Positions 1-39,043 of a stretch of 64,000 bases of DNA are shown here, one piece after another. A model generated the notes under the pieces. That model saw nothing but the letters and a program-made list of their open reading frames with translations, was not told where the DNA came from and searched no databases. Each line of letters begins with the position of its first letter. Within the stretch, counting starts at the first letter, position 1. The stretch comes from Blasia pusilla (lineage: Eukaryota), in NCBI GenBank assembly GCA_050084515.1, contig CM114271.1, positions 22,134,001-22,198,000 on the forward strand, written 5' to 3'. A program made the position numbers and the translations under genes.

Positions 1-1289
1 AGGCAATTTTTAGGGTTAAATTGTTCAAACCCTAAACCAGCCGCCACACCGGAGGCGGCCGTCGTTGTCATAGTCACCATCAATGGTCAATGGTCAATCA
101 TCACTGTTGACGGTCAATTGTTACCATCAACGGTCTGTCGTCACCATCAACGATCAACCGTGACCGTCAACAGTCCACCGTCCAGCGTTGTTGTCCCCTA
201 GCGCTGCTCAAAGCTGCATTCAGACGTTGTCCACCCTTTGGTTGCCATTGCCGCCATTACAAAGTGGAGGGTCTTCCACGACCACCGTTGATTCTATGAC
301 TTGCGCCGCCTCTACCTACTTTGGTTTGGCCGCCACCGTCATCGCAATTTGGTCATCAACTAGTGATGGCCGGTGACCTCGGATTATGGTGTTTGAGTTT
401 TCATTTCATGTTGCTATGTTGGGATTGGTAGCCGCTCGACGATAATCGAGTACCGTGCGGTGACGCCCGTAGCCGCAACGCGCCGCCAATTTCCGCGCCA
501 TGCCGCATGTGGCCGCACCGCACCGTCTCGATCGCGGAGCTGCTCCTTCACTAAGGTGCAGAGCATGTGAATTGCTGATTCAGGAGGGTATGCCACCAAG
601 TGCCGTGCCCTTTGTAGCCGTTCCGTGCTGCACCGCACCACTGGACCTGCACCGCACATCAAGGAGGTTTGAGCAGCGTCAGTACGAGAGGAGTAAACTT
701 GCTGATTGGAGGAGTTGTCTTCACAACCGAGTTGGGGTGGAGATTTGCAGTTGATGAGGAGCGATATCGACATTATTGTCAAGTTACCCATTATGGTCTC
801 TTAACTTGCAAGTGTGAGGGATTTTTGGATATTGGGAAGTTATTTGGGATATTGGGTTTCGTGTTGATCCTAGTAGCATCGATGACGTATGGTGTTTAGG
901 GGACATAGACGTGCGTGGGATGTCCAGAGTTGAGGATGGTTTATCGATGAGACGATAGATCGGTTGATTTTCCGCACCACGCTACTTATTGCCGCACAAC
1001 ATACGTCTCAATGAGAGAGTGTAGATTGAGTGTCACATGTTTAGTTTGATTACTCACGAGATTGAGAGTGATCGTGTGAGAGGGGCACGAGGGCCATCAC
1101 GGCCTCCTTTCGGGATTTTGAGAGCCAAGGTAGTGGACCTGAGAGTAGCTATGGAGGGTTTACCCGGAGTGGTGCGAGGTTTCGAGGGTCTCCACGTGAG
1201 AGACCACTTGGATCTCCTTCTGTGTTGTCTTCTGACAAGAGTGAGCGTGTAGAGGAGTGTGTTAGTGATCCACCGTACACTTTGAGTGG

Positions 1290-2900
1290 TCCTACCAGTT
1301 GGGCATACGAGATGGAGGACCACGCAGATTTTTGGATGTTGTAGGCACTATAGAGCTACACGACTTGATTGTGGAGTTTAGGAGTTGGTGTGACTTACAA
1401 CGGGCTAGGAACTCTAGCGAGTTCAACCCCGTTTAGAGCATGGAACGGTATGTTCTAGAATTTAGAGGGGGCGCCCATGGACGATTACCATGAGTTCTCC
1501 CACAGATATGCCCATGAGGTTGAGGCATGGCAACTCTACTATGACCCACAATATGTGTCATAGACGGATCGGTTTCCAGATGAGGAGGAGGAGTCAGGAG
1601 AGGCTACTTCCTCTTCCACTAGTGATGTTTTAGGAGGGGTCAGTCGCACAAGAGCAGTTGGACCATCTAGTTGGGTTCGTCCCAAGTTCAACCGCGTGGT
1701 TCAGTTCCTTGTTGAGTTGAGGGCGAGCTACTAGAGGGTACGGACGGAGAAGTTACAGAGCATCCACGACTTCTAGAGGCGTGCGGGTAAGAGTTTGCGT
1801 GAGGTTTACACTCGCTTGCGCCGGTTGATCAACGTCACTCAAGGGTGACGGAGGCTTAGGCTATCCAATCATGGTACGGGATGTTGGACTGTGTGGACAC
1901 GGGTGCGGGAGAGGGTGCTTCTGATGAACACCTCCCCTACTTTGAGAGATGTTCTTAGGACCACCAAGAACATTGAGTGCAACATGGCGGAGGAGAGCGT
2001 AGCTACCATGGGTTCTGGGCGAGAGCAGTCACGATTGTCTGCACCACCTGTTCAGCAACGTGGACTCCGAGATAGGTTGATTGTGGCACCACGAGCTTAG
2101 GGAGGATACTGGGAGGCCATGCCACAGAGACTTGCGCTTTCATATGCGGCTTAGCAGCAGCCATCATCTGGTGGAGCCCATCATCAACGCGATTGCACTC
2201 GTCAGGGTCATGGACGTGTGCCTCAGCATGGAGGAAGAGATGGTGTTGCACTAGGAGGTTATAAGTGTGACTATTTTAAGAGGTATGGTCATACACGCGC
2301 CAGGTATTTCAGTTTACATCCTGAGTTACATCCGGACCGAGGGCCAGAGAGGGCACCAGAGCGAGTTGCTGGTCCGGGTGGGGCCAGAGGTCGTGCACCA
2401 GGTGATCCCGTTGGGGGACAAGGAGATGGAGTTTCCCAATAGGGTGGTGGAGCTGCGCGTGGAGGAGGTAGAGTCCCACCACCTAGACGTGTCGAGGGAG
2501 ACGCCAAGCGTGAGGCTGGGATGGCTGCTGAGATACAGCAGCTACACGAGCAGATTTTGGCTATGGCATTGAGGTTACCCGATGTCGGATCCGTGGCGTT
2601 GACATCATATGGAGCAGCTAGAGACATGGAGGATCCTGGTTGGATGTGCGGGGTTGGCTAAATGGAGGCCGTCGTAGTTGTGACGTGTGGAGCAGCTCCA
2701 AAGTGGGATCCATAGCGAGGGGAAGCCAGGAAACACACTAGGCTTCCTCAGTCTTTCACGTTGTCTGAGGCGATGAGGACCCCATCAATGGGTCTTGATC
2801 AGAGTTCCTGGAGAGTTGGTGATTTTGTTGGTGTGCAGGCATAGAGAGTGATGGCAGAAGCGAGTGCGACTACTCCTATTGCTGATGCTTAGGAGGGGCA
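1290..2900 (+). pseudogene. gag-like region with two degenerate CCHC knuckles (copy 1)
   Basis: Matches gag of copies 2 and 3 (GTIEL..F..EF, LR..F.R..GESLRE..TRLRRLI, CDYF..YGH...YF). Many stops. Boundaries approximate. Confidence 0.7.
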
Positions 2901-3275
2901 TGTGTCCAACAAATTGTTAAGGGCGGCCACCGTTGTGTATCGAACTCCTTTATTTTTTGCTTCCGATGTTACCACGTTGGGAGGTACGCCCGCCGAGGTT
3001 TTTCGGCTGGCCGGTACGCTATGTGAGTGTGGAGTTCGAGTTCCTATATCACGTTCAGAGGTGATTGCAGAGGAGATGATGGACCTGCCCTTGGAGCCGA
3101 TGCTTGGGCCGTCCACGTCAGATTCATGGGAGGCTGAGGCACTGAGCATGTGCAAACCGCGTGGAGCGAGACATTTGCACTAGAGTGTGACGGGTCACAG
3201 GAACCCAAGGTAGGCAGGAGTGCTGCTATGACCCCTTTGGACACCATCTCGATTGTGTGGTGCATCCCACAGAAG

Positions 3276-4240
3276 GGCATTCGGGTGTTGGATCTCTTTG
3301 GAGGGATCAACACTAGGTTAGCTGTTGTTTTGCACGTTGGAGTGCACATTCAGCAGAACCTCTATGTGGAGATTGATGATGTTGCGAGGCGCTTCACTTC
3401 ACCATGTTGAGTTGTTACGCCTCCATTTTCCCGACTTGTTGTTTGCGTCCACCATTCAGGGTTACCAGAGTTCTCTACCAAGGGACATTTCATTGTTGGG
3501 GGTGCAGGACTTGGATCGGGTAGGGACCATAGACTTGGTCATTGCTGGTTGGCCGTGTCAGGGCCAATCGAGTGATGGACGAGGTAGCGGGTTAGCTGAC
3601 ACTCGGTCGAGGTTATTTAGGGAGATGATGCGGATCTTGCGATATTTACAAGTGCATCAGTCTCATTCTCCAACATACATTTTGGAGAATGTGCCAATTT
3701 TGGGCAATTTGAGGTCCTGTGCGGTGACGAGTGCACATCAAGTGCGCGCATGGATCGGCCCAATAGCGTTGTTAGATGCGGCGAGTGTGGGTTCACGAGC
3801 ACAACGCCCGCATCTTTGGTGGACCAACTTGGTACCACATGAGGTATTGCGGAGGGCTTATGCGAGAGTGGAGCGTCCCTTGGTGGATTCTATATTGGAT
3901 CCGGGCCATCGATCACAGGCAGTAAGGCATGATGATCGACCGTCGTTGACTGAGGTCAACAAGATTGGCATGCCACGAGCCGCCTTTCCTTTCACATTGG
4001 TGAGTTTTCCCGCTTCCTATGCATTCAAGGAGGCTGGACCTAGCTTGCTTTGGGATGACTAGGTATAGAGGTTGGTGGAGCCCAATGACGATGAGCGAGA
4101 GCAAGCGATGGGATTCCCCACAAGAGTCACTATCGAAGGTATCACGACGTCATGTCTTGGATCAAGCAATGGACTTGAACTGCTTGACATGGATTTTCAG
4201 CTTGGGAGTAGCTGAGCGACTTCATTTGAGGATGCGATAG
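3276..4240 (+). pseudogene. C5-cytosine DNA methyltransferase domain within pol (copy 1), DNMT3-like motif order
   Basis: Motif I VLDLFGGI, II YVEIDD, IV DLVIAGWPCQG (catalytic PC intact), VI YILENV, VIII RAQRPHLWWTNL, IX EREQAMGFP, X SRRHVLDQAMD. Frameshift near 3400 and stop at 4060. Confidence 0.92.
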
Positions 4241-4619
4241 ATCACAAAAGTTACGTTGGTGAGCCCCATGCCTACCAATACGGTTGAGGCAATGGCTGGG
4301 GGCGAGACCCGAGGAGATTGACACACCATGGGTGATCGGGAGAGACACCCTTGGACTTCTTGAGATGTTTTGCAGGTATGCCAGGAGATGATAGCCACAA
4401 CATCAAGCGTGGTTCGGAGTACCGCACGTGGAGAGGGGAGTTCTATTGTCTGAGACGGGGTTGCATCATAGCAACCACCGACATCCGCGCCGAAGAGTCC
4501 TATCGTAATCACGAAGGAGACTTGGGATCCAGATATGGGCCCTAAGTTGACGAGAGGAGAGCGGCGTCGAATATACCAATTCCTTAGAAGTTATAGGAGT
4601 TGTTGTGCATTTAGTATGC

Positions 4620-5900
4620 ATGATTTGGGTACACTAAAGGGTCTAGGGATCCGCATTGAGTTGTTGAGTGACACGCCGATATTCTAATGACCCTAAGGTA
4701 TAGTGACATGGAGAGGACTCTGATTCATAGTAGGAGCCAAGACTTGGTTGGATCAAGACTAGTGAAGATGTTGCATGGAGAGTATGCATCTGCCACTGTC
4801 ATGCCCGCTAAGAAGGATGTGCATGGCAATTCAACGGATAGGCGAATGTGTGGAGATTACCGACCTTTCAATCGGCAGACAAAGGCCGATAGGTATGCCA
4901 TGCCCAGCCCTGAGGAGATCTTTGATGTTATTCGGCATGCAAAGGTCTTCAGTTCCTTGGATTTGCAAGCCGGATACCATCAACTGCCTATCAGATTTGA
5001 GGGCAGGCAGAAGACGGCATTTTGGGGCATCGATCCTCACAGGAAGGATTGTTTGTACCAGTGGCGGTTCTTACCATTCGGGTTAAAAGAACGCCCCGAT
5101 TGAGTTTCAGAGGGTCATGGATAGGATCTTGGCAGGTCTGGATTTTGCTAGGTGTTATATTGATGACATCGTAATCTTTAGCGCCAAGGTTGAGGAGCAT
5201 GAGCGACATCTAGAGGAGGTATTTCGACAATTGCAGTTACATGGGCTGAAGCTAAATCCAAGAAAATTCAAGTTCTTCTACGACCAGATTGAGTACTTGG
5301 ATCATACGATATACCTTGGGAGCCTTGGTGTGCAACATACAAAGGTAGAGGCTATTTCACACATTCCACGCCCTACAAATGTGAGTCGAGTTCGTGCATT
5401 CATGGGATTGGCAAACTTCTATCGACTATAGTCAAAGGTTTCAGTTTGATTGCGAAGCCGCTAACCTTGATGACCAAGGTGGATCAAGAGTGGCACTAGG
5501 GGATGAGCAAGAGAGAGCATTTCAAATGCTCAAGGACACATTGACGTCCGCGCCCATATTGAGGAGCCCGATCAAGGGTCGTCCTTTCCAGTTGCATACC
5601 GATTGGAGCATGTTGGGGCTTTGAGCCGTGCTCACCCAGCATGACGATAATGGTAGAGAGTTTGTGGTGGCTTATGCTAGTCACTTGAAAAACGCTGTAG
5701 AGATGAAGTATAGCTTGTATCAGGGTGAGTGCTTGGCTGCAATGTGGGTTGTCGTACATTTCAGATGTTATCAATTCGGCAATCACTTTACCATCATTAC
5801 TGACCATCAGCCACTTAAGTGGTTGATGCAGTCCAACAAGCTTACGGGGAAGCTTACAAGGTGGGCCCTTTTGTTGTAGGAGTATGACTTCCAGGTGGTG
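4620..5900 (+). pseudogene. Ty3/Gypsy reverse transcriptase and RNase H (copy 1)
   Basis: RRMCGDYRPFN, LDLQAGYHQ, KTAFW, LPFGLK, CYIDDIVIFS, FQLHTDWS, VAYAS, TDHQPLKWL. Frameshifted. Confidence 0.93.
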
Positions 5901-6239
5901 CATACACCTGGGACGCAGATGGTTTGAGCCGTAACCCATGCCTGAGTCAGCGAGATGCAACTAGAGCTCCTTGGCATGGTGAGAGTGATGAGGAGTTGGT
6001 GCCAGGATGGCATGTGTCAACCTATTTGGGCTTGTAAGTTATGGAGAGCGAGATTGCGGAAACTTTGATGGCGAGGTCTGATGGAGAGTCCTTAGAGGCC
6101 GGTAAGGAGACGACACGTGGCCGAGACATTCACGACGATGGAGTGGTCTTGGAGTACCTGCGTACTGACAACGTCGCAAGCACAGTGGATTCTAGAGAAC
6201 GGGATCGGATCCTACAAGGAGCCAGACGGTTCCGGTGGG

Positions 6240-7367
6240 AGGACACACATGTGTTGCAAGTGTGGGAGGATGGTAGAGTGCGTGTAGTGCCTCATCCTTC
6301 GTATCCTCCCACCAGAACCAAAGGCCTTAGACACTCCAACTCCACAGTTGCATCCACTTCCGATCATGGGTTTAGGTTATAGATGGTCAAGCACTTCTAG
6401 AAATGGATAGAGTTGGTTGCATTTCCTGACAAAGCAAGTGAGGGAGTTTCGTATGCCTTCCTAGATCGAGTGTTGAGTCATTACATCACACCAACTTGAG
6501 GTGTTGACAGACCAAGGTACAAAGTTCCACGTGGAGTTTCAGGCCTTGTGTGATCAGGCACTGATGGACCACCGCACTACTTCGCGAGATCATCCTGAGG
6601 CGGATGGACTAGCGGAGCGGGTTGTGCAGACAGTGAAGAGAGGACTACGCAAGTGTGGCTTGTAGCGAGGTTACCTCGGAGATTGGGACCTTCAGTTGCC
6701 GTGGTTGGCGATGGGATACAGATTCAGCAGGCAAGCATCCTTAGCGTCTTTCTCACCGTACTTGTTGCTTTATGGCCAAGAGCCAGATTTACCAGCGGCC
6801 ATTTGTCGAGATACTAGTGAGGTGTTGAAGCTTGATGACTCTGATGTATGGATGCGAGCATGTTCTGAGAGGGCTGAGTTGTTTCGGAGAGTGATGCCCA
6901 TGGCGTTTGAGAACTTGGCAATTGCGCAACACCAGGATACGTTGAGGTATGCGACTATTCAGGGAGGTGGTTATCAGCCTACTATCCGCGGGTTTCATCA
7001 GGGAGACTATGTCTACTTGCAGCAGACGGAACCCACAACCTTGGATGTGATTGCAGGGCACACCATCTTGAGAGTGCGTGAGGTTTTGCCATTCGATGTT
7101 CTCTTATTGGAGGGACGCGATGGTATGGTTTGGAAGGACCATGTGCGTAATTGTGCATCATGTCATCTTTCGAACATTGAGGTTATAGTTGATCCGAGCT
7201 TAGCAATAGTTCTTGCAGGATTGCGGTGTATGTTGTGTGGTTTCGCCTGTGGTGCAGCTACTATGCTAGTCTATGATGGGTGTTCGAGAGGATGGCATAT
7301 GACATGTTTGACGCCAACTCTCACTAGGGTTCCTTAGGGACGATGGATGTGTCCCAGATGTACATAG
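6240..7367 (+). pseudogene. DDE integrase remnant with C-terminal PHD finger (copy 1)
   Basis: TDQGTKF, HPEADGLAERVVQTVKRGL, SPYLLLYG. PHD CMLC...(C>Y)DGCSRGWHMTC...WMCPRC at 7227-7361. The HHCC part is deleted relative to copy 4. Confidence 0.88.
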
Positions 7368-7530
7368 AGTAGGTAGTTCCGACTTCTACATTCTGAATTG
7401 TGTCAAGAAGGCGACTAACGATGGGGCCACATGAGCACCCGACCTTCTTGCTCTTAGCGTCCGAGAGATGTATATCATGGTAGGTAGGGATAGATGGTTA
7501 TCTGGAGTTAGCGGGACCTAACCACCAACT

Positions 7531-7540
7531 AGGGGGGCGA
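7531..7540 (+). promoter_or_regulatory. Polypurine tract, copy 1
   Basis: AGGGGGGCGA directly before repeat B1. Equivalent tracts at about 25920-25928 and, on the minus strand, about 34055-34065. Confidence 0.8.
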
Positions 7541-8314
7541 TTGGAGATATTTTGGTACTTCTTGTCTCATTGTTTGGATGCCATGAGTTACCATGGGATT
7601 GTGTGTGTTTGTGTGTGTGTTCGGTGACAGCGATGTATGTTGTGTAGCGATGTGTGTACGCACGACAACTGTCACGTCTTTTAGGATAGATGGGTGAGAT
7701 CTAGTAGAGTGCGCTTGTGAGTAATGGAAGACGTGCTCAGTAGGTTGAGGATGACTTGTTGAGGCCCCGAGAAACCTGAGCGAGCAGGTTTCCCCTTCGT
7801 TTCGGCTGATTTGGAGCCATATTGAGGAACTTACTATTTTAGGTAAGTTCCATTTTGAGTATATGAACGACTTGATATTTTTGGTAAGTGACCCTTGACC
7901 TTCTACATCAGGTCAAGAGCCAAGGAGGTGACTTGAGAGCGTAGGTTACCATGGAGAGAGCTTGGGAGAGGGGAGGGGTATACCTCAAGGAGAGAGAGCT
8001 TGAGAGCTCATTCTCTCTTTGTTGAACCTCTTGGCATGAGGCAGCGGAGCTATGGTCTTGCTTGCCTTGTGTGTGTAATCCAAGCCTCATATTAGGAGAG
8101 TGGGTTTAGTTTGACATTGACAGACAAATGTGATAATGCACACATATGAGAACTATAGTGTTGTGAGAGAGATTTGATCTTATTTTATTCGAGATATTTT
8201 GGTACTTCTTCTCTTGTTGTTTGGATGCCATGAGTTAGCATGGGATCGTGCGTGTTTGTGTGTGTGTTCGTTGACAGTGATGTATGTTGTGTAGCGATGT
8301 GTGTGCGCACGACA
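7541..8314 (+). repeat. Split terminal repeat of copy 1: B1 (7541-7667), AC, A2 (7670-8187), B2 (8188-8314)
   Basis: B1 and B2 are 127-bp direct repeats (TTsGAGATATTTTGGTAC...GCACGACA). A2 starts TGTCACGTC and is homologous to 21538-22046 (minus) and 26059-26567. Confidence 0.92.
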
Positions 8315-8499
8315 TGCACGTACTCCAAGACCACTCCATCGTCGTGAATGTCTCAACCACTTGTCATCTCCTCACCGGCCTCTGGATCTAAGGACTCTCC
8401 ATCAGACCTCGCTATCGAAGTCTCAATAATCTGGCTCTCCATAGCCAACAAGCCCAAATAGGCTGAGGCATGCCATCTTGGCACCAACTCCTCATCACT

Positions 8500-9900
8500 C
8501 TCTCCATACCAACGAGCTCCAATCACATCTCGCTGACTCGGGCACGGGTTACGGCTCAAAATATCTGCATCTTGGTTGAACGTCCTAGATCTATGCACCA
8601 CTTGGAAGTCATACTCCTACAACAAAAGAGCCCATCTCACAAGCTTCCCTGTAAGCTTGTCGGACTCCATCAACCAATGGTTGATGATCAGTAATGATGG
8701 TAAAGGGGTTGCCGAATAAATAACACCTCAAATGTGCAACAACCCACGGTGCAACCAAACACTCACTCTCATACGAGCTATACTTTGTCTTTGCAGCGTT
8801 GTTTGAGCGACTAGCGTAAGCCACCATGAACTCTCTACCATCATCGTCATGCTTGATTAGCACAGCTCCAAGCCCCAACATGTTCCAATCGGTATGCAAT
8901 TGGAAATGACGTCCCTTGATTGGTCTCCTCAATATGGGCGCGGACGTCAATCTGTCCTTGAGAAACTCAAATGCTCTCTCTTGCTCATCTGCCCAATGCC
9001 AATCCGGATCCACCTTGGTCAGCAAGATTAGCGGCTTCGGAATCGAAGTGAAACCCTTGACATACCGTCGATAGAAGTTTGCCAATCCCATGAATGCATG
9101 AACTCGACTCACATTTATAGGGCGTGAAATGCGTGAAATAGCCTCTACCTTTGTCTGCTCCACACCAAGGCCACCTTGGTATATCGAATGACCTAGGGAC
9201 TCAATCTCGTCGTAGAAGAACTTGCACTTGCCTAGATGTAGCTTTAGCCCATGTAACTACAATCGTCGAAACACCTCCTCTAGATGTCGCTCATGCTCCT
9301 CAACCGTGGCGCTAAAGACTACGATGTCATCAATATACCTAGCAACATCCAGACCTGCCAAGATCCTATCTATGACCCTCTAAAACTGAGCCGGGGTGTT
9401 CTTTAACCCAAATGGTAAGAACCACCTGTGGTACAAACAATCCTTCCCGTGAGGATCGATGCCCCAAAATGCCATCTTCTGCCTATCCTCCAATCTAATA
9501 GGCAGCTAATGGTATATATCCGGCTCGAAGATCTAACAAACTGAAGACCTTTGCATGCCCAATAGCATCAAAGATCTCCTTAGGGGTGGGCATGGCATAC
9601 CTATCGGACTTTGTCTACCGATTGATAGGTCGGTAATCTCCACACATCCCCCTATCTATCTAGTTTCCATGCACATTCTTCTTGGCCGACATGATAGTGG
9701 CAAATGCATACTCTCCATTCGAGATCTCCACTATCTTGCTCCAACCAAGTCCTGGCTCCTACTCTGAATCAAAGCCCTCTCCATGTCACTATATTTGTAA
9801 GGTTGTGGAAAGAACGGCGTATCGCTCGACAACTCAATGCGGATCCCTGGACCCTTCAGCATACCCAAATCATGAATACTAAATGCAAAACAACTCCTAT
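8500..9900 (-). pseudogene. RT and RNase H (copy 2)
   Basis: ORF 8609-9163 FMGLANFYRRYVKGF, FQLHTDWN, VAYASRS, TDHQPL. YIDD near 9325-9337. Confidence 0.9.
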
Positions 9901-10289
9901 AACTCCTAAGGAACTAGTGTATCCGACACCGTCTCCTCTTGTTAACTTAGGGCCCATATGTGGCTCCCAAGTCTCCATTGAGACTACGGTAGGACTCTCC
10001 GGTTTGGATGTTGGTGGTTGCTATGGTGCAACCCCATCTCGGACAATAGAACTCGACTGCTCCCCTGCAACCAACTACAAACTTTGATCTTCACGTGTAG
10101 TACACGCAACGACACCTCAATGTTGTGGCTATCATCTCATGGCCTACCTGCAAAACATCCCAAGAAGTCCAAGGGTGTCTCTTTCGATCACCCCTCGTGT
10201 GTTGATCTCCTTGGGTCTTGCCCCCAGCCACTACCTCAATCGTCTTGGTAGGCATGGGGCTCACCAACGCAACAATTGTAATCTGTCGC

Positions 10290-11270
10290 AACCTCAAACA
10301 ACATTGCTCAGCTACTCCTAAGCTGAAAATCCATGTCAAGTAGTTCATGTCCATCGCTTGACCCAAGACATGACATCGTGATACCTCTGATAGTGACGGT
10401 ACTTCCGTCACTCCTATGGGGAATCCCATCGCTTGCTCTTGCTCATCAGCGTTGGGCTCCACCAACCGCTGTATTTGGTCATCCCAAACCAAGCCAGGTC
10501 CGGCCTCCTTGAATTCATAGGAAGTGAGAAAACTCATCAATGTGGAAAAGGCTGCTCATGGCATGCCTATCCTATGGACCACAATCAATAGTGGTCGATC
10601 ATCGTGCCTCATTGCCTCGGATCAACGATCTGGATCCAGAATAGAATCCACCAACGAATCGGAGGGGCGCTCCACTCTCGCATACGCCCTCCGCAAAACC
10701 TCATATGGCACCAAATTGCTCCACCAAAGACGCATGCGATGTGCTCATGAACCTACACTCGCGGCATCTAGCAACACTATGGGGCTGATCCATGCATGCA
10801 CCTGATGTGCACTGGTCACCACGCGGGATCTTATATCGCCCAAAATCGACACATTCTCCAGAATGTATGCTGGAGAACGAGATTGATGCTCTTGTAAATG
10901 TCGCAAGATCCGCATCATCTCCCAAAATAACATGGACCGAGAGTCAGCTAACCCGCTATCCCGTCCAACACTCGACTGGCCGTGACACAGCCAACCAGCA
11001 ATGACCAAATCTATGGTCTCTACCCGCTCCAAGTCTTGTGCCCCCAGCAATGAAATGTTCCTCGGTAGGGAAATCTAATACCCCTGGATGGCATACGCAG
11101 AAAAAAAGTTGAGAAACCCAAGACGTAACTGCGCAAAATGGTGAAGTGAAGCATGCCTTGCAATATCATCAATCTCAACGTTTATACCACTGCACACGCA
11201 CTCTTGCCTGCAAAACAACAGCTAAATCAGTGTTGATCCCTCCAAAGAGATCGAGAACGCGTATACCCTC
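10290..11270 (-). pseudogene. C5 DNA methyltransferase domain (copy 2)
   Basis: VLDLFGGI near 11235-11260. DLVIAGWLCHG (PC mutated to LC), YILENV, LLDAASVGS, EQAMGFPIGVT, SRCHVLGQAMD. Confidence 0.9.
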
Positions 11271-11443
11271 CTCTGGGATGCATCATTCAATCGGGTGGTG
11301 TCCATAGGGATCATAGTAGCACTCTTGGCTACTTTAGGTTTCTCTGACCCATCACGCTCTAGTGCAAACATCTCACTCCACACAGTCTACACATGGTCAG
11401 CGGTTTAGTGCAAAGCAACTTACTCGAGCTCCACAATGGCACC

Positions 11444-12271: not shown

Positions 12272-15200
12272 ATGGAGTATTCCTCTACAACAATCATAGG
12301 CGAGAAGCTAGATAAGCAGAATTACAATATCTAGAAGTTTCGCATGAAAAAATTTCTCATGGGTCAAGAACTATGGGAGCTTGTCATATATGATGAGGCC
12401 AAGCCAGAAGGTGACTCTCCAGACTTGAATGTTCGTGCCTGGAACAAACGCGCAAGACAAGTAATCCACTACATTTCAATAACGATCAGTTTTCCAATGA
12501 TATGTCATATTCAAGATGTTGATACTTTGAAGAAGACCTGGGATGCATTGGAAAAGCTGTTCCACACATCTACCAAGACCAGAAAGGTTTAATTGAAACA
12601 GCAATTGAACGAAGTGAGGAAAGGATCTTGGAGCATCAATGATTATATTTTGAGTATCAAACACAATGTTGATCAGTTGAATAACATTGGACTGACAGTA
12701 GAAGATGATGATCTCATTTTGTTCACTCTTCAAGGCCTTCCAAAGGATAACAAGTCCTTTGAGACCTCTATCTCTGTAAGAGAAAAGTATCCAACCTTTC
12801 AAGAGTTAGTTCCTCTGTTAATCACTGAAGAGATGCGCCTAGTAGGCAGCGGTATCTCGTCTAGTCTGCAAGAGAGTGCGATATTTGCAAGTTATGGATC
12901 AAACAAAGGTAGGGGTTATGGCAAAAATTTTTGTGGTCATGGTGGATATCAAGCATATGGAGGAAGAGGCACTCAATATAACGTCCCTCAATCAACTACG
13001 AACCAGTACTAGACATAATCACAAAGTGGTGATGGTGGAAATCGTAGAGGTCAAGATCAGCAGCAAAGGGTCCTTGGATCTTGCAATTATTGTGGGATAA
13101 AAGCTCACTATGCAAAGTTTTGCTTCAAGAAGAAGGCACATATGAGAATAGGAGCCTTACAACGACAAAACTATGTGGAGCAACAACACCAAGAGTAGTA
13201 CCAAGAACAACAACATTCACAAACGGAACATATCTTGGTCATGACTCGTCATATGGGAGCAATGGTCAAGAAAGACTCGACAACAGATTGGTACATTGAC
13301 TCTGATGCATCAAATCACATGACCTCACAAGCTAAATGGTTCAGTAGTTTGGAGCCGGTGAATGATCCTTCAATTGTTCTCATAGGAGATGACACTCAAC
13401 ATCATATCATGCATACCGGTAAAGCTCCAATAGCATCATATGGTCTTCGGGCTTTTGGAAATGTTCTCTATGTTCCTACCATTGCAAGAAACCTGATCTC
13501 TATAGGAGAGATAGTAGAACAGGATTATCAAGTGAAGTTTAACACAGATTGTTGTTTCATTCAAACAATGGATGACTAGACTACGATAGCCAAAGGAACT
13601 AGATCTGGAAGAATGTTCAAATTAGATGTTTCTATGCTAAAGATTCAAATAGCAATGTATGGTCAAACCAACCAACAAGTCACAAATCTAAATGTGTGGC
13701 ATAAAAGAATTCGACGTATGAATCTTCAAAGATTACAGAGTCTTTCATCATCTAATATAGTAATATGACTCCCTAAATTAGCAAGTCTTGCTACGTTAGA
13801 GGTATGTCCTGCTTGCTAATTTGGAAAACAAACTAGATTTCCTTTTCTAAAGCAAGATAGAAGAGCATCCAGGATATTGGAGTTGATCCACAGTGACAAC
13901 ATCACAACATAGCCTTAGTGGTTGCCAGTACTATCTTTCATTTATTGATGACTTCTCTAGGTATATATGGGTATACTTTCTAAAAGCTAAGTCAGAGGTA
14001 TTCTCAATGTTCCAAACATTGAAAGTTCTAGTAGAGAAGCAAACTGGAGAACACATTCTGAAATTGGAGGAGAGTATGTCATGACCATACGGATTATGTC
14101 GTAGAGTATAGTGTGCTAGTAGAGGCCATATCTTATGTAGGGCCGCAGTCTCTAGGTAGAGATGCGATTTCATACATAGGGTTGGGGGTTACTCAGTTGA
14201 GGGTGACTTTTCCAGTAGGGCCCGCTCTTAGGTTGGAGGATATAAGGTGGAGTACACTCAAAGAACAGTTAGTTCTTTGAGTTGAGCCTGTTGCGTTGGG
14301 AGTTAGCCTTGGTAGTGAGTAGAGCTCTTGGCTATGGTGTTTTCCGCAAGCTTCGACCTAGATTCTCCCATCGTGGAGTGGGTTTGGCTTGATTCTATGT
14401 GATTCTATACGTGTTTTATGAGAGTAGGTCTTTCACGAATTTCTAGTTGTGGTACACTTGTGTTTGTGGATGCTCTCGTCTATGTTATGTATGTATGTGA
14501 GTATGATATGTCAGCGATGTATGTTGTATGACGATGTGGACTCGCACGACAAGTATCTTTCAATAGAGTTTGATGACTATTTACTTCAGAATGGCATCCA
14601 ACGTCAAGTGACTTGTCGTTATACTCCACAAGAAAATGGAGTGGCTAAGAGAAATAATCAACATATTTATGAGGTGGCACAAGCTATGCTCAATGAGAAG
14701 AACATACCTAAGGTGTATTAGGCAGAGGCTATAGCATGTGTAGTCTTCTTAATCAACCAAACTCTAACAGTAGGAGTTCATGATAAAACTCCATTCGAAG
14801 TCTTCATAGGAAGTAAACTTGATTTTTCCTTCTTGAAAGTTTTTGGTTGTATTTATTATGCTCATGTTCCTTGTGAGAGACATTAAAAATTAAACCCCAA
14901 GTCTAAAAGATGTATCTTCATTGGCTATGCTGATGGAACTAAGAGGTGTAAGTGCTACATTCCATCCTCTAGGCAGCTTATTATTAGTCAGGATGTTGTC
15001 TTTGATGAGCTAAAGTCATGGTATGCTCCATCTGAGCCTATTCCATCTCTAAACTTGACTATTGAGGGGGAGAATATGACTTTAAACCAACAGACATTGT
15101 CTTCAACTTTCCCAAGTACTAGTACAGGATTAGGAGAGGCCCACGATTCTTCAGTTAAATCTATGAGTCTATGGACGGGAAGAGTACGTATTCAGACTCT

Positions 15201-17210: not shown

Positions 17211-20200
17211 ACACCTCTCCTCCACAGAATGATGCGGCTACCATGATACTCCTCTCCATAGAAATTTCAAGAACAGGAGCGTCCTTTGCATGGACTGTCC
17301 CTCAATCAAATCACTAGGCCAAGTGATGGCGCTGCTAAATGTTGCTAAGATCGCCATCTCTCCTAGCCGTCGCTCGATCACTCCACCGATGAATTGAACA
17401 AGAAATAAGCTAAGGCGCCCTTCACCTAACTGCCATCTTGGTCTGTAGGATGCTAACTCCTCCCTGTAATCCAGGGAAATCCATATCGGGTACAATACTG
17501 CGCCACCAACCAAGACGTCGTAGGACTCTCCATCGGTCACTATCGCCTTGGCTCGCACCAGGCCCTCATCTGTAGGATGTGTCGGGAGAATCCTCACCAA
17601 AACCTGCTATCGGGTGATATATTGTGTGGTACTCATTCCATCCAAGGATATCTGTATTCGGAATGGACAATGCTCCACATGCGCTCTCGTCAAGCCCAAT
17701 CCTCTGAATGACACTTTCCCCAACATCAGGGATTGCGCTCCTTAATCCAACAAGATGCGCAGCGGACTAAGAACACTACCTCCTGGACTCACCAACTCAA
17801 AGACCTCTCCCCGGTTATCCAGCAATACAACATGAGGAGAAGCCATGGCACGCTCTATCGTGGATCTAGCGAGCATCTCCGCCATCCTAGCTGTCGCGGC
17901 CCGACCTGGACGGCCCGAGCATAGGCTCCAAGGGCAGGTTCATCACCTCTTATGCAATCACCCCTGAGTGTGACGCAAGAACACCAACTCTTTGGTCACA
18001 TAGCGTATACATAGCGGCGAGCTGAAAAACCTCCGCGGGCATTTCTCCCAACGTCATAACATCGAAAGCAGAAAATAAAGAAGCACGGTATAGAAGAGTG
18101 GCCCTCCCCAACAACGTGCTCGACAGATGCTCTTCCTGAGCATCAGAAATAGGGGTCGTTGCACTAGCTTCTCCCATCGCCCTCCGTGCCTGCACACCAA
18201 TAACATCACCAACTCTCTGGGAACTCTGATCAGGACCCATCAATGGGGTCTTCATCGCCTAAAACAATGTGAAAGATTGAGGAAGCATGGTCTGTTTCCT
18301 TGCTTTCCCCCTCTGTGGATCCAACTCGGCAACGGCTCCACGTGTTACAACAGCGGCGGCCTCCATTTGGGAAACCCCGCACATCCAACCAGGATCCTCC
18401 ATATCTCTGGCTGCTCCATATGACGTCGATGCCAGTGATCCAGCATCGGATAGTCTCAATGCCATAGTGGCAATCTGCTATTGTGGCTTCTGTATCTAAG
18501 CAACCATCCTAGCTTCACGCCCGGCGTCTACCTTGACGCGTTTAGGTGGTGGAACTCTACCTCTTCCACGGGCAACTCCACCATCCCCTCGGGAAACTCC
18601 AGCTCCTCGTTCCCCAACGGGACCACCTAGTGCATGAACCCTGGGCCCACCATGACCGGCAACTCGCTAGGGTGCCCTCTTTGGCCCTCGGTCCGGACGT
18701 AACTCAAGGTGTAGGCAGAAATACCTGGTGTGACCGAACTTCAGACAATAGTCACACTGATAACCTCCTGATGCAGCACCATCTCCTCCTCCCTGCTCGG
18801 GCGCGTGTCCATGACCGTGACGGGTGCAATCGCACTGGTGATGGGCTCCGCCACATGCCCAACAAACAATCGTAGGCAGTTGCTGCTGAGCCGCATATGA
18901 GGGCGCATGTCTCTGTGGCACGGCCTCTCGATATCCTCCCTGAGCTTGTCGTGCCACAAACCTATCTTGGAATCCACGTTGCTGCCCTGGTGGTGCAGAC
19001 AGTCGTGACTGCCCTCGCCCAAAACTCATGGCTACGCTCTCCTCCGCCATGTTGCACTCAATGTTCTCGGTGGTCCTAAGAACATCTCTCAACGTAGGTA
19101 AGGTGTTCATAAGAAGCACCCCCTCCCATACATGTGTTCGCAGGGTTCGATCCAGCATCGCCTAGCATGATTGGATAGCCTAGGACTCTTTCACCTCCTC
19201 AGTGATGTTAATCAACCAGCATAAGCGGGTGCAGGTCTCACACAAACTCTCACCCGGGCGCCTCTAGAAGTCGTGGATGCTCCGCAACTTCTCCATCCCT
19301 ATCCCCTCGTAGTTCGTCCGCAACTCAGCAAAGAACTCAACCACGGGGTTGAACCTGGGATGAACCCAACCCGACTGGACGGTGCAACTGCTCCAATGAG
19401 ACTTATCCCTCCTAAAACATCATTGGTGGAAGAGGAAGTTGCCTTTTCCTCCTCATATAGGAACGGCTCCGTCCATGACACATAGTGTGGATCATAGTAG
19501 AGTCGCCATACCTCAATCTCAGAGAACTCATGGTAATCGTCTATGGGTGCCCCCTCTAGGTGCTAGAACATACCGCTCCATGCTGTGAATAGGTTGAACT
19601 CTCTAGAATTCCTAGCCCAGTGTGAGTCACACCAACTCCTAAACTCCGCAATGAAGTCGTAGGCTCTATAGTGCCAATAGCACCCGTAAACCTATGTGGT
19701 CCTCTACCCCAATCTTCCATCTCATACGCCCAACTGGTAGGACCACTCAATGTGTGTGGTGATGTACTAACAAACTACTCTACACTCTCCCCCTTGTCTG
19801 AAGACGACACAAAAGGAGATCGAGGTGGTCCCTCACATGGAGACCCTCGAAACCTCACGCCACTCCGCATTAACCCTCTAGAGCTACTCTCAGGTCCACC
19901 ACCTCGCCTCTTAAAATTTTGAAAGGACGTCGTGATGACCCTCGTGCCCCTCTCACGCAATCACTCTAAATCTTGCGAGTAATCACTCTATCACTCAACT
20001 AAAATGCGGCACTCAATCTGCACTCTCTTAGTGAGACGTGTGGTGTGCCGCAACAAGCGGCGTGGTGCGGCAAATCAACTACTATTGTCTCATCAAAAAA
20101 ACATACCCTCAACTTTGGACATCCCACACACGTGTATGTCCCCTAAACCATACATCAATGATACTCTCTCCATCAACACGAAACCCAATATCCCAAATAA

Positions 20201-21537
20201 CTACCCAATACCCGGAAATCCCTAACACGTGCACGGAAAAAGACCATGATGGGTAACCTGAAAATAATGTCGATGTTGCTCCTCAGCAACCGTAAATCTT
20301 GACCACAACTCGATTGTGAAGACAAACTTCTCCAAATAGCACGTTGTACTCCCCTGGTAGTGACGATGCTCAAATCTCCTTGATGTGCGGTGTGGGTCCA
20401 ACGATATGGTGCGGCACTAGCGGCACGAAATGGCTACAAACGGCTCGGGAATGGGGTGCGGCACTCAACGGCATATCCTCCTCAACAGTAATACAAAATC
20501 TGCGGTGAGGGTGCAGCTCCATGATAGAGATGGTGCGGTGCGGCCACGAGCAGTAGGACGCGGAAATCTCCTGCGCGTTGCGACTACGGGCTTCCACCTC
20601 AAGACATAGCAAGCCGGGAAGAGAAATGCGACCCCATCAATCCAAAAAGGTCACCGTCCAATTAACAACGGTGAAGAACGCCGTCGACGGCGGCCAACGG
20701 ACGGAGCAAGGACGGCCCCTATGGACAATGAAAGTCAATAGTAATTACAATATCTTTCATGTGGGTAAAAATGGTTCTACTTTGGCCTTATTCAAAAATT
20801 GAAAGTTCTTTGTTTTTTCCCACTCCACTAACTCCTTAAACTAAGGGTCAACTCACTAAAATTACTCACATTTAGCTTATACTCCACTAAGCCCTATAAA
20901 TATTGGGTCAACACCCACTAAATAAAGTTTCCACTCACTTTAACCTCAAGATCCTAAGTTTCACTTGTCCTTTCTCCACTAATAAAAGATATTTTTTAAA
21001 ATTTTCTACCTCACCTAAAAATTTACCAAGAATTTTGAAATTTGCTCCTTCCTCATACGGTGGCTATGGCAGCTCCACAAAAATGATCATTACTTCTTGC
21101 TCCCATGTTCAAATTGTGCATAGTTTCCCAATCTACAACATTGTTAAATCAGCTTCTTCATACAACCTTCCAATAAAAACTCACAAGGATTGTCATGCAT
21201 CCCTTCAATCTGCACTCCTACAAAAACTTCAATAGCGCTTCCGCGCTGATTTCTCCCAACAAAAATTGCAAACCTGTAAACACAACAACCAGCAAGCTAG
21301 AAGGTACTCCCAAGAGCACTAGCATGGGACAAAAAATCCCCATACTCAATTTCTAACAAAATTTTGGCAACGCTTCCGTGTGCCACTCTCCCGTACAAAA
21401 AATCATCAAAGGAATCAGCAAAATTGAGCGGCTCTTGCTCTGGTGAGCACTCCCATGAACTGCTGAATGGGGAATACAGTCCCCAACCTGCAACAAGAGC
21501 GAGTGACCAGCAAGCTCCCCCATTGAAACTCTCTTTG

Positions 21538-22046
21538 TAAATCAAGTAGATCTCTCATCAACATCTCACACCAAGCTCTCCTTGGTATACACTCTCTCTC
21601 ATGTCAAACCAAACCCACTCTCCTAATGAGAGGCTTAGGTTACACACACAAGGCAAGGAGGACCATACCTTCGCCGCCTCATGCCAAGAGGTTCAACAAA
21701 GAGAGAATGAGCTTTGAAGCTCTCTCTCTTGGAGATATACCCCCTTCCCTCTCTCAAGCTCTCTCCTCGGTAACCTATGCTTGCAGGTCACCTCCTTGGC
21801 TCTTGACTAGCTATAGCGGGTCAAAGGTCACTTCCCAAAGTGGAAAGTCAACTATACTCCAATGGAAACTTACTCGAAATAGTGAGTTTCTCTATATGAC
21901 TCCAAATGCACCAAAAAAAAGGGAAAACCTTATGTCTCAGGTTACCCGTGGCCTCAGCAGATCCTCCTCAACCTCTTGAGGCTCTTCTCTAGTATCTCTG
22001 AAGGCGCTCTACTAGATCTCGCTGATCTATCCTAAAAGTGGTGACA
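21538..22046 (-). repeat. 5' terminal repeat A1 of copy 2 (no B segment)
   Basis: Homology to A2 of copies 1 and 4 stops at ...TGATTTA, exactly where B2 begins in those copies. Confidence 0.9.
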
Positions 22047-34100: not shown

Positions 34101-34224
34101 ATACATCTACTACATGCTATACACCTTCTTGGGTGCCGAATCGAAGGCCGGGTGCTAGGTTGCCCCATCATTAGTCGCACATCGTAATCCATATCATGCA
34201 AAGATCAAGTCATCTACCTCTCCT

Positions 34225-36718: not shown

Positions 36719-36819
36719 CGTCCTACTCTAAGGATGCAAAATACTACTCTCCTCGCCCCCAGCCGATGCCTCTACCGTCCCGGTAGCCATCGAGCTCATT
36801 ACAAGGGGTGGAAGACCCA

Positions 36820-39009: not shown

Positions 39010-39043
39010 GAATGACTAGGGAAGCCTAGCCTGCCTCCCAACC

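What the first reader, a model, noticed from the sequence alone, without database searches (positions are those of the whole stretch)
3276..4240. LTR retrotransposons encoding their own C5 DNA methyltransferase inside pol, in two distinct families
Seen: a full ordered set of DNMT motifs (I DLFGGI, IV GWPCQ, VI ENV, VIII HRxRLWWTN, IX/X MGFP...RHVLGQAM) lies immediately upstream of RT in three copies: here, 10290-11270 and 36820-37800. In the two copies that keep a protease it sits between protease and RT. The copies fall into two families with unalignable A repeats, so the domain is an inherited part of the element and not a one-off capture. Known: the motif wording resembles DNMT3-type de novo enzymes (AHRARYFWGN, FGFPVHYT), and retrotransposon-borne DNMTs have been reported in dinoflagellates and charophyte algae. 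I do not know of a characterised land-plant family. Inference: the enzyme would be packaged in the particle and could methylate the cDNA or target site, giving self-silencing, camouflage or a mobile source of de novo methylation.
Basis: partly seen in the sequence, partly recalled or inferred. Interest (0 to 1): 0.92.

Follow-up and report, generated by a model that had tools for sequence, protein, structure and literature searches.

The report
Dead retrotransposon copies carrying a DNMT3-like methyltransferase
Three decayed copies of a plant jumping gene each carry a DNA cytosine methyltransferase domain built into their replication protein, a rare arrangement already described in a green alga and here extended to what looks like a bryophyte genome.

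Summary
Three Ty3/Gypsy-type copies (A +, B -, D -) each carry a C5 cytosine methyltransferase domain between protease and RT (PF00145 E 1.6e-9 and 3.4e-8; tblastn to Marchantia polyproteins E 1e-79 to 1e-101). They form two families with unalignable terminal repeats. All three domains are broken by frameshifts and stops. Copy D has lost the catalytic Cys, and copy A has lost one Arg of motif VIII.

The domain is an inherited pol module. It sits in the same position in Marchantia, Calypogeia and Sphagnum proteins. dN/dS between A and B is 0.33. The catalytic Cys, Glu and Arg-x-Arg are kept in 148-149 of 149 relatives. Its best solved relatives are DNMT3A/B/C, by profile (1.2e-20) and by fold.

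Sister copies are numerous in the host DNA and are transcribed in sense.

The closest known system is KnitGypsy-Dnmt3 of Klebsormidium (PMC5890265). It shares the odd A-coding-B-A-B repeat layout. Later papers already speak of 'streptophyte Gypsy-DNMT3'.

Verdict: a new member of a known kind, with decayed copies here. What the enzyme does is still an inference.

The parts
462..8325 (+). Copy A, family 1: gag-PR-DNMT-RT-RH-INT-PHD plus 3' repeats; 5' terminal repeat not in the window
   Evidence: blastn self-comparison with copy B (462-3119 vs 20594-17903; 3142-6161 vs 11400-8316) and with copy C. tblastn with P0009, P0005 and P0043 gives the domain order.
3222..4369 (+). Copy A DNMT3-like domain (the finding, 3276-4240), broken
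   Evidence: PF00145 E 1.6e-9. Frame changes near 3384 and 4127-4132; stops at 4060, 4066 and 4238. Motif IV GWPCQG is intact; motif VIII reads QRPHLWWTN.
4523..5915 (+). Copy A RT and RNase H
   Evidence: RVT_1 E 7.2e-16 for ORF 5087-5431. RT_RNaseH E 8.9e-26 for ORF 5625-5879. tblastn with P0005.
6666..7337 (+). Copy A integrase C-terminal part with PHD finger
   Evidence: PHD E 0.0018, 18.7 bits, below the cut-off of 24. Collinear with the INT-PHD region of P0039: 40% identity, E 5e-44.
7540..8314 (+). Copy A 3' repeat block B1 (7540-7667), A2 (7668-8186), B2 (8187-8314), preceded by the purine tract TAGGGGGGCGA
   Evidence: B1 vs B2 K2P distance 0.083.
8316..11400 (-). Copy B, family 1, 3' piece: DNMT-RT-RH, truncated in RH/INT
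   Evidence: RT_RNaseH_2 E 6e-27 for ORF 8609-9256.
10124..11270 (-). Copy B DNMT3-like domain, broken
   Evidence: PF00145 E 3.4e-8. Frame change near 11180; stops at 11077, 10747, 10624 and 10558. Motif IV reads GWLCHG.
17903..22046 (-). Copy B 5' piece: A1 repeat (22046-21538), leader, gag and protease (20594-17903)
22047..26706 (+). Copy C, family 1, 5'-truncated at RT (no DNMT); 3' block B 25929-26056, A 26059-26567, B 26567-26694
33478..42311 (-). Copy D, family 2, full length: A1 42311-41944, coding part, B1 34054-33953, A2 33950-33584, B2 33582-33478. 4-bp target duplication GATA at 42312-42315 and 33474-33477.
   Evidence: A1 vs A2 K2P distance 0.079.
36665..37848 (-). Copy D DNMT3-like domain, heavily broken
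   Evidence: Two overlapping tblastn frames with many frame changes; stops at 37786 and 37563. Motif IV reads GWPYRG (Cys lost) and ENV is lost. The C-terminal part (ORF 36728-37093) is intact with MGFA...RHVLGQAMD.
38065..39015 (-). Copy D protease region
   Evidence: ORF holds the aspartic protease motif LLDSGA and aligns to the PR region of P0009 and P0005. No Pfam hit.
34194..34673 (-). Copy D integrase C-terminus with PHD finger
   Evidence: PHD E 2.8e-5, 24.5 bits against a cut-off of 24. 37% identical and collinear with P0038 residues 1558-1684, E 9e-24.
14077..14551 (+). Solo A-B unit of family 2, with 4-bp duplication AGTA (14073-14076 and 14552-14555)

Best explanation
These are decayed genomic copies of a Ty3/Gypsy-type LTR retrotransposon lineage whose Pol polyprotein carries a DNMT3-like C5 cytosine methyltransferase. 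The domain order is gag(CCHC)-protease-DNMT-RT-RNase H-integrase-PHD.

Shown: the domain is a stable, selected module of the element. It is shared by two families in this genome and by relatives in liverworts and a moss. The three copies in the window are pseudogenes. Sister copies are numerous and are transcribed in sense.

Inferred (about 40% likely, by analogy with SymbioDIRS-Dnmt3, which methylates CG de novo in yeast, PMC5890265): in intact copies the DNMT is translated as part of Gag-Pol, released or kept fused next to RT by the element's protease, and held in the particle with the new cDNA. There it methylates that cDNA before or at integration. A new insertion would then enter the genome already carrying host-like methylation, which the maintenance enzymes propagate. 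Whether this serves camouflage, protection of the cDNA or self-restraint is open.
For: - Domain and position: PF00145 hits. tblastn collinearity gag-PR-DNMT-RT-RH-INT in copies A, B and D.
- Relatives: 43 proteins at E<=1e-3 among 2660 candidates. 18 carry an organism name: 15 Marchantia polymorpha, 2 Calypogeia fissa, 1 Sphagnum fallax. P0005 has DNMT, RVT_1 and RNase H in one protein.
- Family size: 12590 cluster representatives at E<=1e-3 and 498 at <=1e-30.
- Selection: A-B dN/dS is 0.325 for DNMT (315 codons, bootstrap 0.23-0.46, Fisher p 1.8e-10), against gag 0.51, RT 0.45 and RH 0.39. Between families pN is 0.35 with saturated pS of 0.73.
- Catalytic residues in 149 relatives of <80% mutual identity: motif IV Cys 148, motif VI Glu 149, motif VIII Arg 148 and Arg 148, Asn 149.
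- DNMT3 affinity: P0009 vs PDB gives DNMT3A 1.7e-8 and HaeIII 1e-3. Profile A1 gives DNMT3A 1.2e-20, DNMT3B about 1e-17, DRM 8e-14 to 1e-10, HhaI 1e-6. The AF2 model (pLDDT 64, pTM 0.69) has all listed Foldseek matches, to rank 50, in DNMT3A/B/C, E 9e-15, TM 0.75 on the target. Motif order I-IV-VI-VIII-IX-X is not rearranged.
- Abundance and expression: one WGS run laid at >=90% gave 44811 reads, of which 316 are >=99% alike. Summed depth in the DNMT bins is 122-271. Three stranded RNA runs gave 1918, 2435 and 2005 reads, with 5 to 10 or more times as many first mates on the - strand as on the + strand, meaning sense transcripts. Summed depth in the three DNMT bins is 0-6.
Against: - No copy in the window is intact, so nothing here shows that an active enzyme is made in this genome.
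- RNA reads are 90-99% alike and come from other copies whose reading frames I could not see.
- No formal phylogeny against plant DNMT3, DRM, CMT or MET1, or against the Klebsormidium elements, could be built. No such sequences were obtainable with the tools, and the best 150 profile hits are all retro-element DNMTs.
- The dN/dS alignment was guided by a protein, which favours conservative readings, although all domains were treated alike.
- The AF2 model is of middling confidence.
- The substrate (DNA or RNA) and the timing of methylation are pure inference.
Confidence: 0.8

Rival explanations
1. The methyltransferase-like domain is kept for something other than DNA methylation. It could be an RNA m5C methyltransferase acting on the genomic RNA, or a DNA- or SAM-binding module used in particle assembly or targeting.
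For: PMC5890265 (Discussion) raises RNA methylation for the LINE-borne DNMT, which did not methylate DNA in yeast. An earlier scan note reports a catalytically dead DNMT fold between RNase H and integrase of a diatom Gypsy (not checked here). Many relatives have Glu instead of Pro before the catalytic Cys (WECQ).
Against: Cys, Glu-Asn, Arg-x-Arg and the motif X Gly are kept in 144-149 of 149 relatives, as expected for a working C5 enzyme. The best sequence and fold matches are DNA enzymes of the DNMT3 family; DNMT2 (tRNA) scores only 3e-5 against 1e-20.
Confidence: 0.12
2. The domain entered Gypsy elements more than once. The bryophyte PR-DNMT-RT form, the chlorophyte RT-RH-DNMT-INT form and KnitGypsy-Dnmt3 would be convergent captures of host DNMT3 genes, not one ancient acquisition followed by a move within pol.
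For: The domain sits at two different places in pol: 45 proteins show the PR-side order, 104 the RH/INT-side order and 56 DNMT alone, of 205 with a DNMT match. The literature stresses recurrent capture (PMC5890265; 2026 preprint passages).
Against: The two forms are 33-38% identical over about 330 residues (E 1e-46 to 1e-59), far closer than either is to DNMT3A. They share derived wording (GW[PE]CQ, HRxRxxWTN, EPNxxERExAMG). The integrase C-terminus and PHD finger are collinear between them (E 5e-44 and 9e-24). In the DNMT tree, one branch (SH-aLRT 98) separates all 22 PR-side rows from all 46 RH-side rows. The tree has no outgroup, so a double capture from closely related donors is not excluded.
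Confidence: 0.2
3. The domain is a one-off capture or an assembly or annotation chimera: a host DNMT gene fragment lying next to TE fragments.
For: The window is a dense nest of TE fragments.
Against: The same order and junctions occur in three copies of two families 65% identical in DNA, and in proteins of three other bryophyte genera. dN/dS is below 1. Copy D has a 4-bp target duplication around the whole unit.
Confidence: 0.02
4. The methyltransferase derives from a bacterial or viral Dcm-type enzyme, not from eukaryotic DNMT3.
For: The ESM Atlas feature search lists phage-rich PF00145 clusters at the same score (0.96) as a streptophyte cluster. No rooted tree was made.
Against: The profile E-value is 1.2e-20 for DNMT3A against 1e-6 for M.HhaI and 1e-5 for M.HaeIII. 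The listed Foldseek matches, to rank 50, are all DNMT3. PMC5890265 places the Klebsormidium elements inside Dnmt3 (passage).
Confidence: 0.07

Closest known systems
KnitGypsy-Dnmt3 of the charophyte Klebsormidium nitens (de Mendoza et al. 2018, PMC5890265; passages and Discussion read)
   Same: An LTR Gypsy element with a non-rearranged Dnmt3-type domain inside the Pol ORF. Purifying selection acts on the domain (they report Ka/Ks < 0.2; here 0.33 between two decayed copies). [quoted passage not shown]
   Different: The host here looks like a land plant: the nearest named relatives are liverworts and a moss. Two families are present, with numerous copies. I could not see their figure, so I do not know where the domain sits in their Pol or whether a PHD finger is present. 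No K. nitens sequence was available for direct comparison.
Unnamed chlorophyte and metagenomic Gypsy elements with the order RT-RH-DNMT-INT-PHD (for example hypothetical proteins of Monoraphidium neglectum and Scenedesmus sp.)
   Same: A homologous DNMT (33-38% identity) and a homologous integrase C-terminus with PHD finger.
   Different: The DNMT lies between RNase H and integrase, not between protease and RT. The two orders fall on opposite sides of one branch of the DNMT tree.
SymbioDIRS-Dnmt3 of Symbiodinium (PMC5890265)
   Same: A Dnmt3-type domain inside the Pol of a retrotransposon, shown by those authors to methylate CG de novo in yeast. This is the only functional precedent.
   Different: It is a DIRS element with a tyrosine recombinase, in an unrelated host. 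Here the integrase is a DDE (rve) type and a 4-bp target duplication is present.
Host DNMT3A/3B/3C (solved structures)
   Same: Best sequence and fold match. Motif order I, IV, VI, VIII, IX, X, with RxR..W.N after motif VIII as in AHRARYFWGN.
   Different: About 21% identity. Motif IV is GW(P/E)CQ rather than SPCN. There is no PWWP or ADD domain next to it, and it is embedded in a polyprotein.

Membership tests
Gypsy-DNMT3 retrotransposons (KnitGypsy-Dnmt3 type) | Ty3/Gypsy pol set: aspartic protease, RT, RNase H, DDE integrase in that order | tested here: met
   DSG motif; RVT_1, RT_RNaseH and rve hits; order by tblastn.
Gypsy-DNMT3 retrotransposons (KnitGypsy-Dnmt3 type) | C5 DNMT domain inside the Pol reading frame | tested here: met
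   Collinear in copies A, B and D, though the frames are broken. Relatives P0005 and P0012 carry PR, DNMT and RT in one predicted protein.
Gypsy-DNMT3 retrotransposons (KnitGypsy-Dnmt3 type) | DNMT belongs to the DNMT3 clade | tested here: inconclusive
   Best profile and fold matches are DNMT3A/B/C. No tree with plant DNMT3, DRM, CMT or MET1 could be built.
Gypsy-DNMT3 retrotransposons (KnitGypsy-Dnmt3 type) | Split direct repeats A-coding-B-A-B | tested here: met
   Found in both families. No B unit follows the 5' A unit.
Gypsy-DNMT3 retrotransposons (KnitGypsy-Dnmt3 type) | [quoted passage not shown] | tested here: met
   omega 0.325, bootstrap 0.23-0.46; catalytic residues kept in 148-149 of 149 relatives.
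Gypsy-DNMT3 retrotransposons (KnitGypsy-Dnmt3 type) | Direct sequence kinship with the K. nitens elements | not testable with these tools
   No hit carries a Klebsormidium name, and no K. nitens sequence was on hand.
PF00145 C5 cytosine DNA methyltransferase (active enzyme) | Motif IV catalytic Cys, motif VI ENV and motif VIII RxR all present in an open frame | tested here: not met
   Copy A: Cys and ENV are kept, RxR is lost, plus 2 frame changes and 3 stops. Copy B: Cys is kept, the neighbouring Pro and Gln are changed, plus 4 stops. Copy D: Cys and ENV are lost. The feature is met in intact relatives.
DRM (domains rearranged methyltransferase) | Motifs VI-X precede motifs I-IV | tested here: not met
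   The order is I, IV, VI, VIII, IX, X. DRM matches only the I-IV part, at weaker E-values.
DIRS retrotransposons | Tyrosine recombinase instead of DDE integrase | tested here: not met
   rve and Integrase_H2C2 in the window and in relatives; 4-bp target duplication.
Chromoviruses | Chromodomain at the integrase C-terminus | tested here: not met
   A PHD finger is found instead. No chromodomain hit appears in the Pfam scans.

The most novel reading that the evidence does not exclude
A single Gypsy lineage marked by a PHD finger after its integrase acquired a DNMT3-like enzyme before chlorophytes and streptophytes split. It moved the domain once within pol, from the RH-INT side to the PR-RT side or the reverse. 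It has persisted into land plants, where in this host it still has tens to hundreds of copies and sense transcripts. That would make it a mobile, element-owned source of de novo cytosine methylation in a land-plant genome. Its A-coding-B-A-B layout would reflect an unconventional replication or integration route, for example integration from a circle junction.
Probability: 0.3. Interest if true: 0.75.

Novelty: new member of a known kind. Interest (0 to 1): 0.55.

Why it matters
Cytosine methylation is the host's main weapon against transposons, so a transposon that brings its own de novo methyltransferase inverts the usual picture. Until now this has been described in text only for dinoflagellates and one charophyte alga.

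This work shows that the same kind of element exists in several families in bryophyte-type genomes, including the model Marchantia. It is under selection, abundant and transcribed. That gives a genetically tractable setting, with Marchantia methylation mutants and transformation, in which to ask what such an enzyme does.

It also warns annotators. Many 'DNA methylase' hits in bryophyte and green-algal gene sets are transposon Pol fragments, not host epigenetic genes.

Tried and rejected
- Whole-genome search of the window's own assembly: no genome is held. Intact copies could therefore not be sought or counted directly.
- Formal phylogeny against host DNMT3, DRM, CMT, MET1 and bacterial Dcm: not possible. 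The one exhaustive profile search returned only retro-element DNMTs in its best 150, and PDB sequences cannot be exported.
- ESM Atlas look-ups: these gave only generic PF00145 clusters (one streptophyte, two phage-rich) at equal scores. They do not help classify the domain.
- The listing of cluster members for 10 distant relatives: no organism names.
- Earlier notes of this scan on this genome or on this sequence: none.
- RNA holders in the run index: no RNA holder was listed. The raw RNA runs were laid instead.
- Literature: eight full-text searches found no paper that describes a DNMT-bearing LTR element in a liverwort, moss or other land plant. Neumann et al. 2019 (PMC6317226, passages) mention neither Marchantia, a methyltransferase nor a PHD finger. 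The Marchantia MET1 preprint (10.1101/363937, passages) and PMC11982613 (passages) say nothing on TE-borne DNMTs. Supplements were closed. The supplementary data of PMC5890265 and PMC12344493 may list land-plant members.
- Canonical LTR models for the A-coding-B-A-B layout (LTR = A-B or LTR = B-A): neither reproduces the observed order. I therefore leave its origin unexplained; a permuted two-LTR-circle model is only an idea.
- Pfam did not recognise the protease; I rely on the DSG motif and on homology.
Full report
**What is there**

The window is a nest of transposon fragments from a eukaryote; no whole genome is held for it. Self-comparison and tblastn with three bryophyte polyproteins found by homology search resolve four related Ty3/Gypsy-type copies.
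- Copy A (+, 462-8325).
- Copy B (-), in two pieces: 11400-8316 and 20594-17903, plus a 5' repeat at 22046-21538. The pieces are separated by a nested Copia-like element at 11446-17210 (LTRs 89% alike; Copia gag and Pol_BBD hits).
- Copy C (+, 22047-26706), which begins at RT.
- Copy D (-, 33478-42311), a full-length element of a second family.

In A, B and D the order is gag, protease, methyltransferase, RT, RNase H, integrase.

**Is it a methyltransferase, and is it more than chance?**

Pfam PF00145 scores E 1.6e-9 (38.1 bits, cut-off 22) on ORF 3322-4062 and 3.4e-8 on ORF 10745-11074. tblastn to the Marchantia protein P0009 gives E 7e-79, 5e-101 and 2e-50 for A, B and D.

Motifs I, IV, VI, VIII, IX and X follow in the normal, non-rearranged order.

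All three copies are pseudogenes.
- Copy A has two frame changes and three stops, and reads QRPH for the RxR of motif VIII.
- Copy B has one frame change and four stops, and reads GWLCHG in motif IV.
- Copy D has many frame changes, reads GWPYRG (catalytic Cys lost) and has lost ENV.

Copy-specific changes are dominated by C>T and G>A: 23 of 47 in A, 18 of 43 in B and 31 of 51 in C, in a three-way aligned RT stretch. Where copy A differs from most genomic reads of the family, it has A or T against G or C at 389 places, and the reverse at 85. This is the decay expected of methylated repeats.

**Inherited module or capture?**

The search for longer homologues returned 43 proteins at E<=1e-3 among 2660 candidates. 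Eighteen bear an organism name: 15 Marchantia polymorpha, 2 Calypogeia fissa and 1 Sphagnum fallax, at 46-62% identity. Pfam on six of them shows, for example, DNA_methylase, RVT_1 and RNase H in one Marchantia protein (P0005).

A profile of ten methyltransferase-only fragments plus the window ORF (A1) was scored against 1.84 billion cluster representatives. It found 12590 proteins at E<=1e-3, 2286 at <=1e-10 and 498 at <=1e-30. The best 150 all have E<1e-71, and many are polyproteins of 1000-3456 residues.

In 149 relatives thinned to below 80% mutual identity, the catalytic residues are almost invariant.
- Motif IV Cys: 148.
- Motif VI Glu: 149; Asn: 141.
- The two Arg of motif VIII: 148 each.
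- The Asn after motif VIII: 149.

I also ran a protein-guided Nei-Gojobori comparison of copies A and B.

| Domain | Codons | dN/dS | Bootstrap | Fisher p |
|---|---|---|---|---|
| DNMT | 315 | 0.325 | 0.23-0.46 | 1.8e-10 |
| gag | 237 | 0.51 | 0.34-0.80 | 0.00094 |
| RT | 180 | 0.45 | 0.29-0.72 | 0.002 |
| RH | 141 | 0.39 | 0.23-0.75 | 0.0014 |

Between families, synonymous sites are saturated (pS 0.73) while pN is 0.35. The guide protein biases such alignments towards conservation, but all domains were treated alike. Part of the divergence is also neutral decay after insertion, which raises the ratio rather than lowering it.

The two families are real. Their A repeats find only their own family by blastn, and their DNMT regions are 65% identical in DNA. 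In a tree of the domain, A and B are sisters (SH-aLRT 100), while D groups with the Marchantia and Calypogeia sequences to their exclusion (94). All three lie inside an 11-row clade (99). That tree had 106 rows: 103 of the 148 thinned relatives (all 22 PR-side rows, all 35 of unknown order, every second one of the 91 RH-side rows) plus the three window copies read with X at breaks. It was a quick IQ-TREE search under LG+G4, without outgroup. The families therefore separated before or around the divergence of those liverwort genera.

**What kind of methyltransferase?**

The intact Marchantia relative P0009 finds DNMT3A best among solved structures (1.7e-8), far ahead of M.HaeIII (1e-3) and DRM (2.6e-3). 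Profile A1 gives the following.

| Solved protein | E-value |
|---|---|
| DNMT3A | 1.2e-20 |
| DNMT3C | 5e-19 |
| DNMT3B | about 1e-17 |
| DRM | 8e-14 to 1e-10 |
| M.HhaI | 1e-6 |
| DNMT2 | 3e-5 |
| DNMT1 or chromomethylase | none at E<=1 |

An AlphaFold2 model of fragment P0008 with A1 (mean pLDDT 64, pTM 0.69) has all its listed Foldseek matches in the PDB, down to rank 50, in DNMT3A/B/C (E 9e-15, TM 0.75 on the target, about 21% identity).

This agrees with the published placement of the Klebsormidium elements inside Dnmt3 (PMC5890265, passage). I could not build the tree against plant DNMT3, DRM, CMT and MET1 that would settle it.

**The element backbone**

The integrase ends in a PHD finger. 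In copy D it scores E 2.8e-5, 24.5 bits against a cut-off of 24. In copy A it is weaker, at 18.7 bits.

Local BLAST classification of all 205 fetched proteins with a DNMT match gives three groups.
- 45 have the PR-side order seen here.
- 104 have the order (PR-)RT-RH-DNMT-INT-PHD.
- 56 show DNMT alone.

The only organism names among the second kind are the chlorophytes Monoraphidium neglectum and Scenedesmus sp.; that search returned 116 proteins at E<=1e-10 among 7276 candidates.

The two kinds share the DNMT (33-38% identity over about 330 residues) and derived motif wording. They also share a collinear integrase C-terminus with PHD finger (E 5e-44 and 9e-24). They sit on opposite sides of one branch (SH-aLRT 98) of the DNMT tree, with no exception among the 22 and 46 rows of known order. 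The simplest reading is one acquisition and one move within pol. Without an outgroup, two captures from related donors are not excluded.

**Terminal repeats**

Both families have the layout A-coding-B-A-B.
- Copy D: A1 42311-41944, B1 34054-33953, A2 33950-33584, B2 33582-33478.
- Copy A: B1 7540-7667, A2 7668-8186, B2 8187-8314.
- Copy C has the same 3' block.
- No B unit follows the 5' A unit.

Copy D is flanked by a 4-bp duplication (GATA). A solo A-B unit at 14077-14551 is flanked by AGTA. The termini are inverted (TGTCATG...CACGACA), as expected for a DDE integrase. A purine tract (TAGGGGG(G)CGA) conserved between the families lies just before B1. The B1|A2 junction (ACA-AT-TGTCA) looks like two element ends joined.

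The legend of Fig. 4c in PMC5890265 describes the same repeat structure for KnitGypsy-Dnmt3. This ties the families together structurally. How a DDE-integrase element regenerates this layout is unexplained. A form derived from a two-LTR circle opened at a B|A junction would fit, but that is only an idea. Genomic reads also show forms with the A-B unit missing (skip of 647 bases) or present once more (going back 647 bases).

**Abundance and expression in the host**

Runs labelled with one coded organism hold parts of the stretch. I laid one WGS run and three RNA-seq runs on 1-8400 at >=90% likeness.
- WGS: about 1 in 100 of the run was read and 44811 reads were laid. Of these, 316 are >=99% alike, 4444 are 95-99% and 40051 are 90-95%.
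- Summed depth is 122-271 in the DNMT bins, up to 1251 in RT and about 2750 in the A repeat.
- If the >=99% class (about 6-fold) bounds single-copy depth, the DNMT part exists in tens of copies or more. This is a rough inference.
- Several of copy A's frame-breaking indels are absent from most reads, so sister copies are less damaged at those places.
- RNA: 1918, 2435 and 2005 reads were laid, of which only 5, 6 and 8 are >=99% alike.
- First mates lie 5 to 10 or more times as often on the - strand as on the + strand. In the usual stranded libraries that means transcripts of the coding strand.
- Summed RNA depth is 0-6 in the three DNMT bins (3361-4200) and about 16-170 from integrase (6161 on) to the repeats.

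The family is therefore transcribed, mostly from other copies. Whether any transcript has an open frame is unknown.

**Comparison with what is known**

The phenomenon was described in 2018 for dinoflagellates and for the charophyte Klebsormidium nitens (PMC5890265). That text does not mention Marchantia, liverworts or mosses as carriers.

[quoted passage not shown] A 2026 preprint lists 'streptophytes (Gypsy-DNMT3)' among known TE-borne DNMTs (10.64898/2026.05.21.726589, passage).

Eight full-text searches found no description of a land-plant family. Supplements, which may list such members, were closed.

That is the same position as the chlorophyte form. I did not check it.

**Verdict**

The copies in this window are fossils. 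The finding is a new member of a known kind: Gypsy-DNMT3 elements extended to a bryophyte-type genome, in two families. Three added points appear to be undescribed: the PHD-bearing backbone, the two alternative positions of the domain in pol, and the conserved A-coding-B-A-B layout with target duplications.

Noticed in passing
7480-8325; 25870-26706; 33478-34110 and 41880-42315: Both families have split direct repeats A-coding-B-A-B with 4-bp target duplications. A conserved purine tract lies just before B1, and the B1|A2 junction looks like two joined element ends. Neither LTR = A-B nor LTR = B-A reproduces this under canonical reverse transcription. Reads also show forms lacking the 647-bp A-B unit or carrying an extra one.
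   Followed up: partly
32776-33351 (-), 42783-43118 (-), also 62935-63481: PIF1-type helicase fragments (Pif1_2B E 2e-14; PIF1 E 4e-17), as in Helitron-like elements, lie on both sides of copy D on the same strand. Copy D probably inserted into such an element. A third related stretch lies at 62935-63481 (73% identical in DNA).
   Followed up: partly
11446-17210, with 14077-14551 inside: A Copia-like element (LTRs 11446-11755 and 16902-17210, 89% alike; Copia gag and Pol_BBD hits) is nested in copy B. It was itself hit by a solo A-B unit of family 2, giving three layers of nesting.
   Followed up: partly
1-8400 (copy A) and RT stretches of copies A, B, C: There is a strong excess of C>T and G>A among copy-specific changes (389 against 85 places versus the family's reads; 23/47, 18/43 and 31/51 in a three-way alignment). 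CpG observed/expected is 0.60-0.73. Several inactivating changes in the DNMT motifs are of this kind.
   Followed up: partly
462-8325, 33478-42311 and other Gypsy copies: The coding strand of these elements is markedly G-rich over C (GC skew about +0.13 to +0.23 on + strand copies and -0.2 to -0.3 on - strand copies). The surrounding AT-richer sequence is not. The cause is unknown.
   Followed up: no
relatives P0037-P0040, P0290, P0314 and many unnamed contigs: A large sister group of Gypsy elements carries the DNMT between RNase H and integrase, with the same PHD finger. Named members are from the chlorophytes Monoraphidium and Scenedesmus. Many read WECQ instead of WPCQ in motif IV. I found no description of these in the texts searched.
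   Followed up: partly
7482 to 7977: A joint skipping 494 bases is seen in all three RNA runs (4, 8 and 9 reads) and in none of the DNA reads. The ends are not GT..AG. It may be a splice-like event, a template switch at a G run, or an expressed variant copy.
   Followed up: no
1-461: The first 461 bases do not match copy B's leader upstream of gag, although WGS depth there is as high as over the element. This may be a different repeat or a diverged leader.
   Followed up: no
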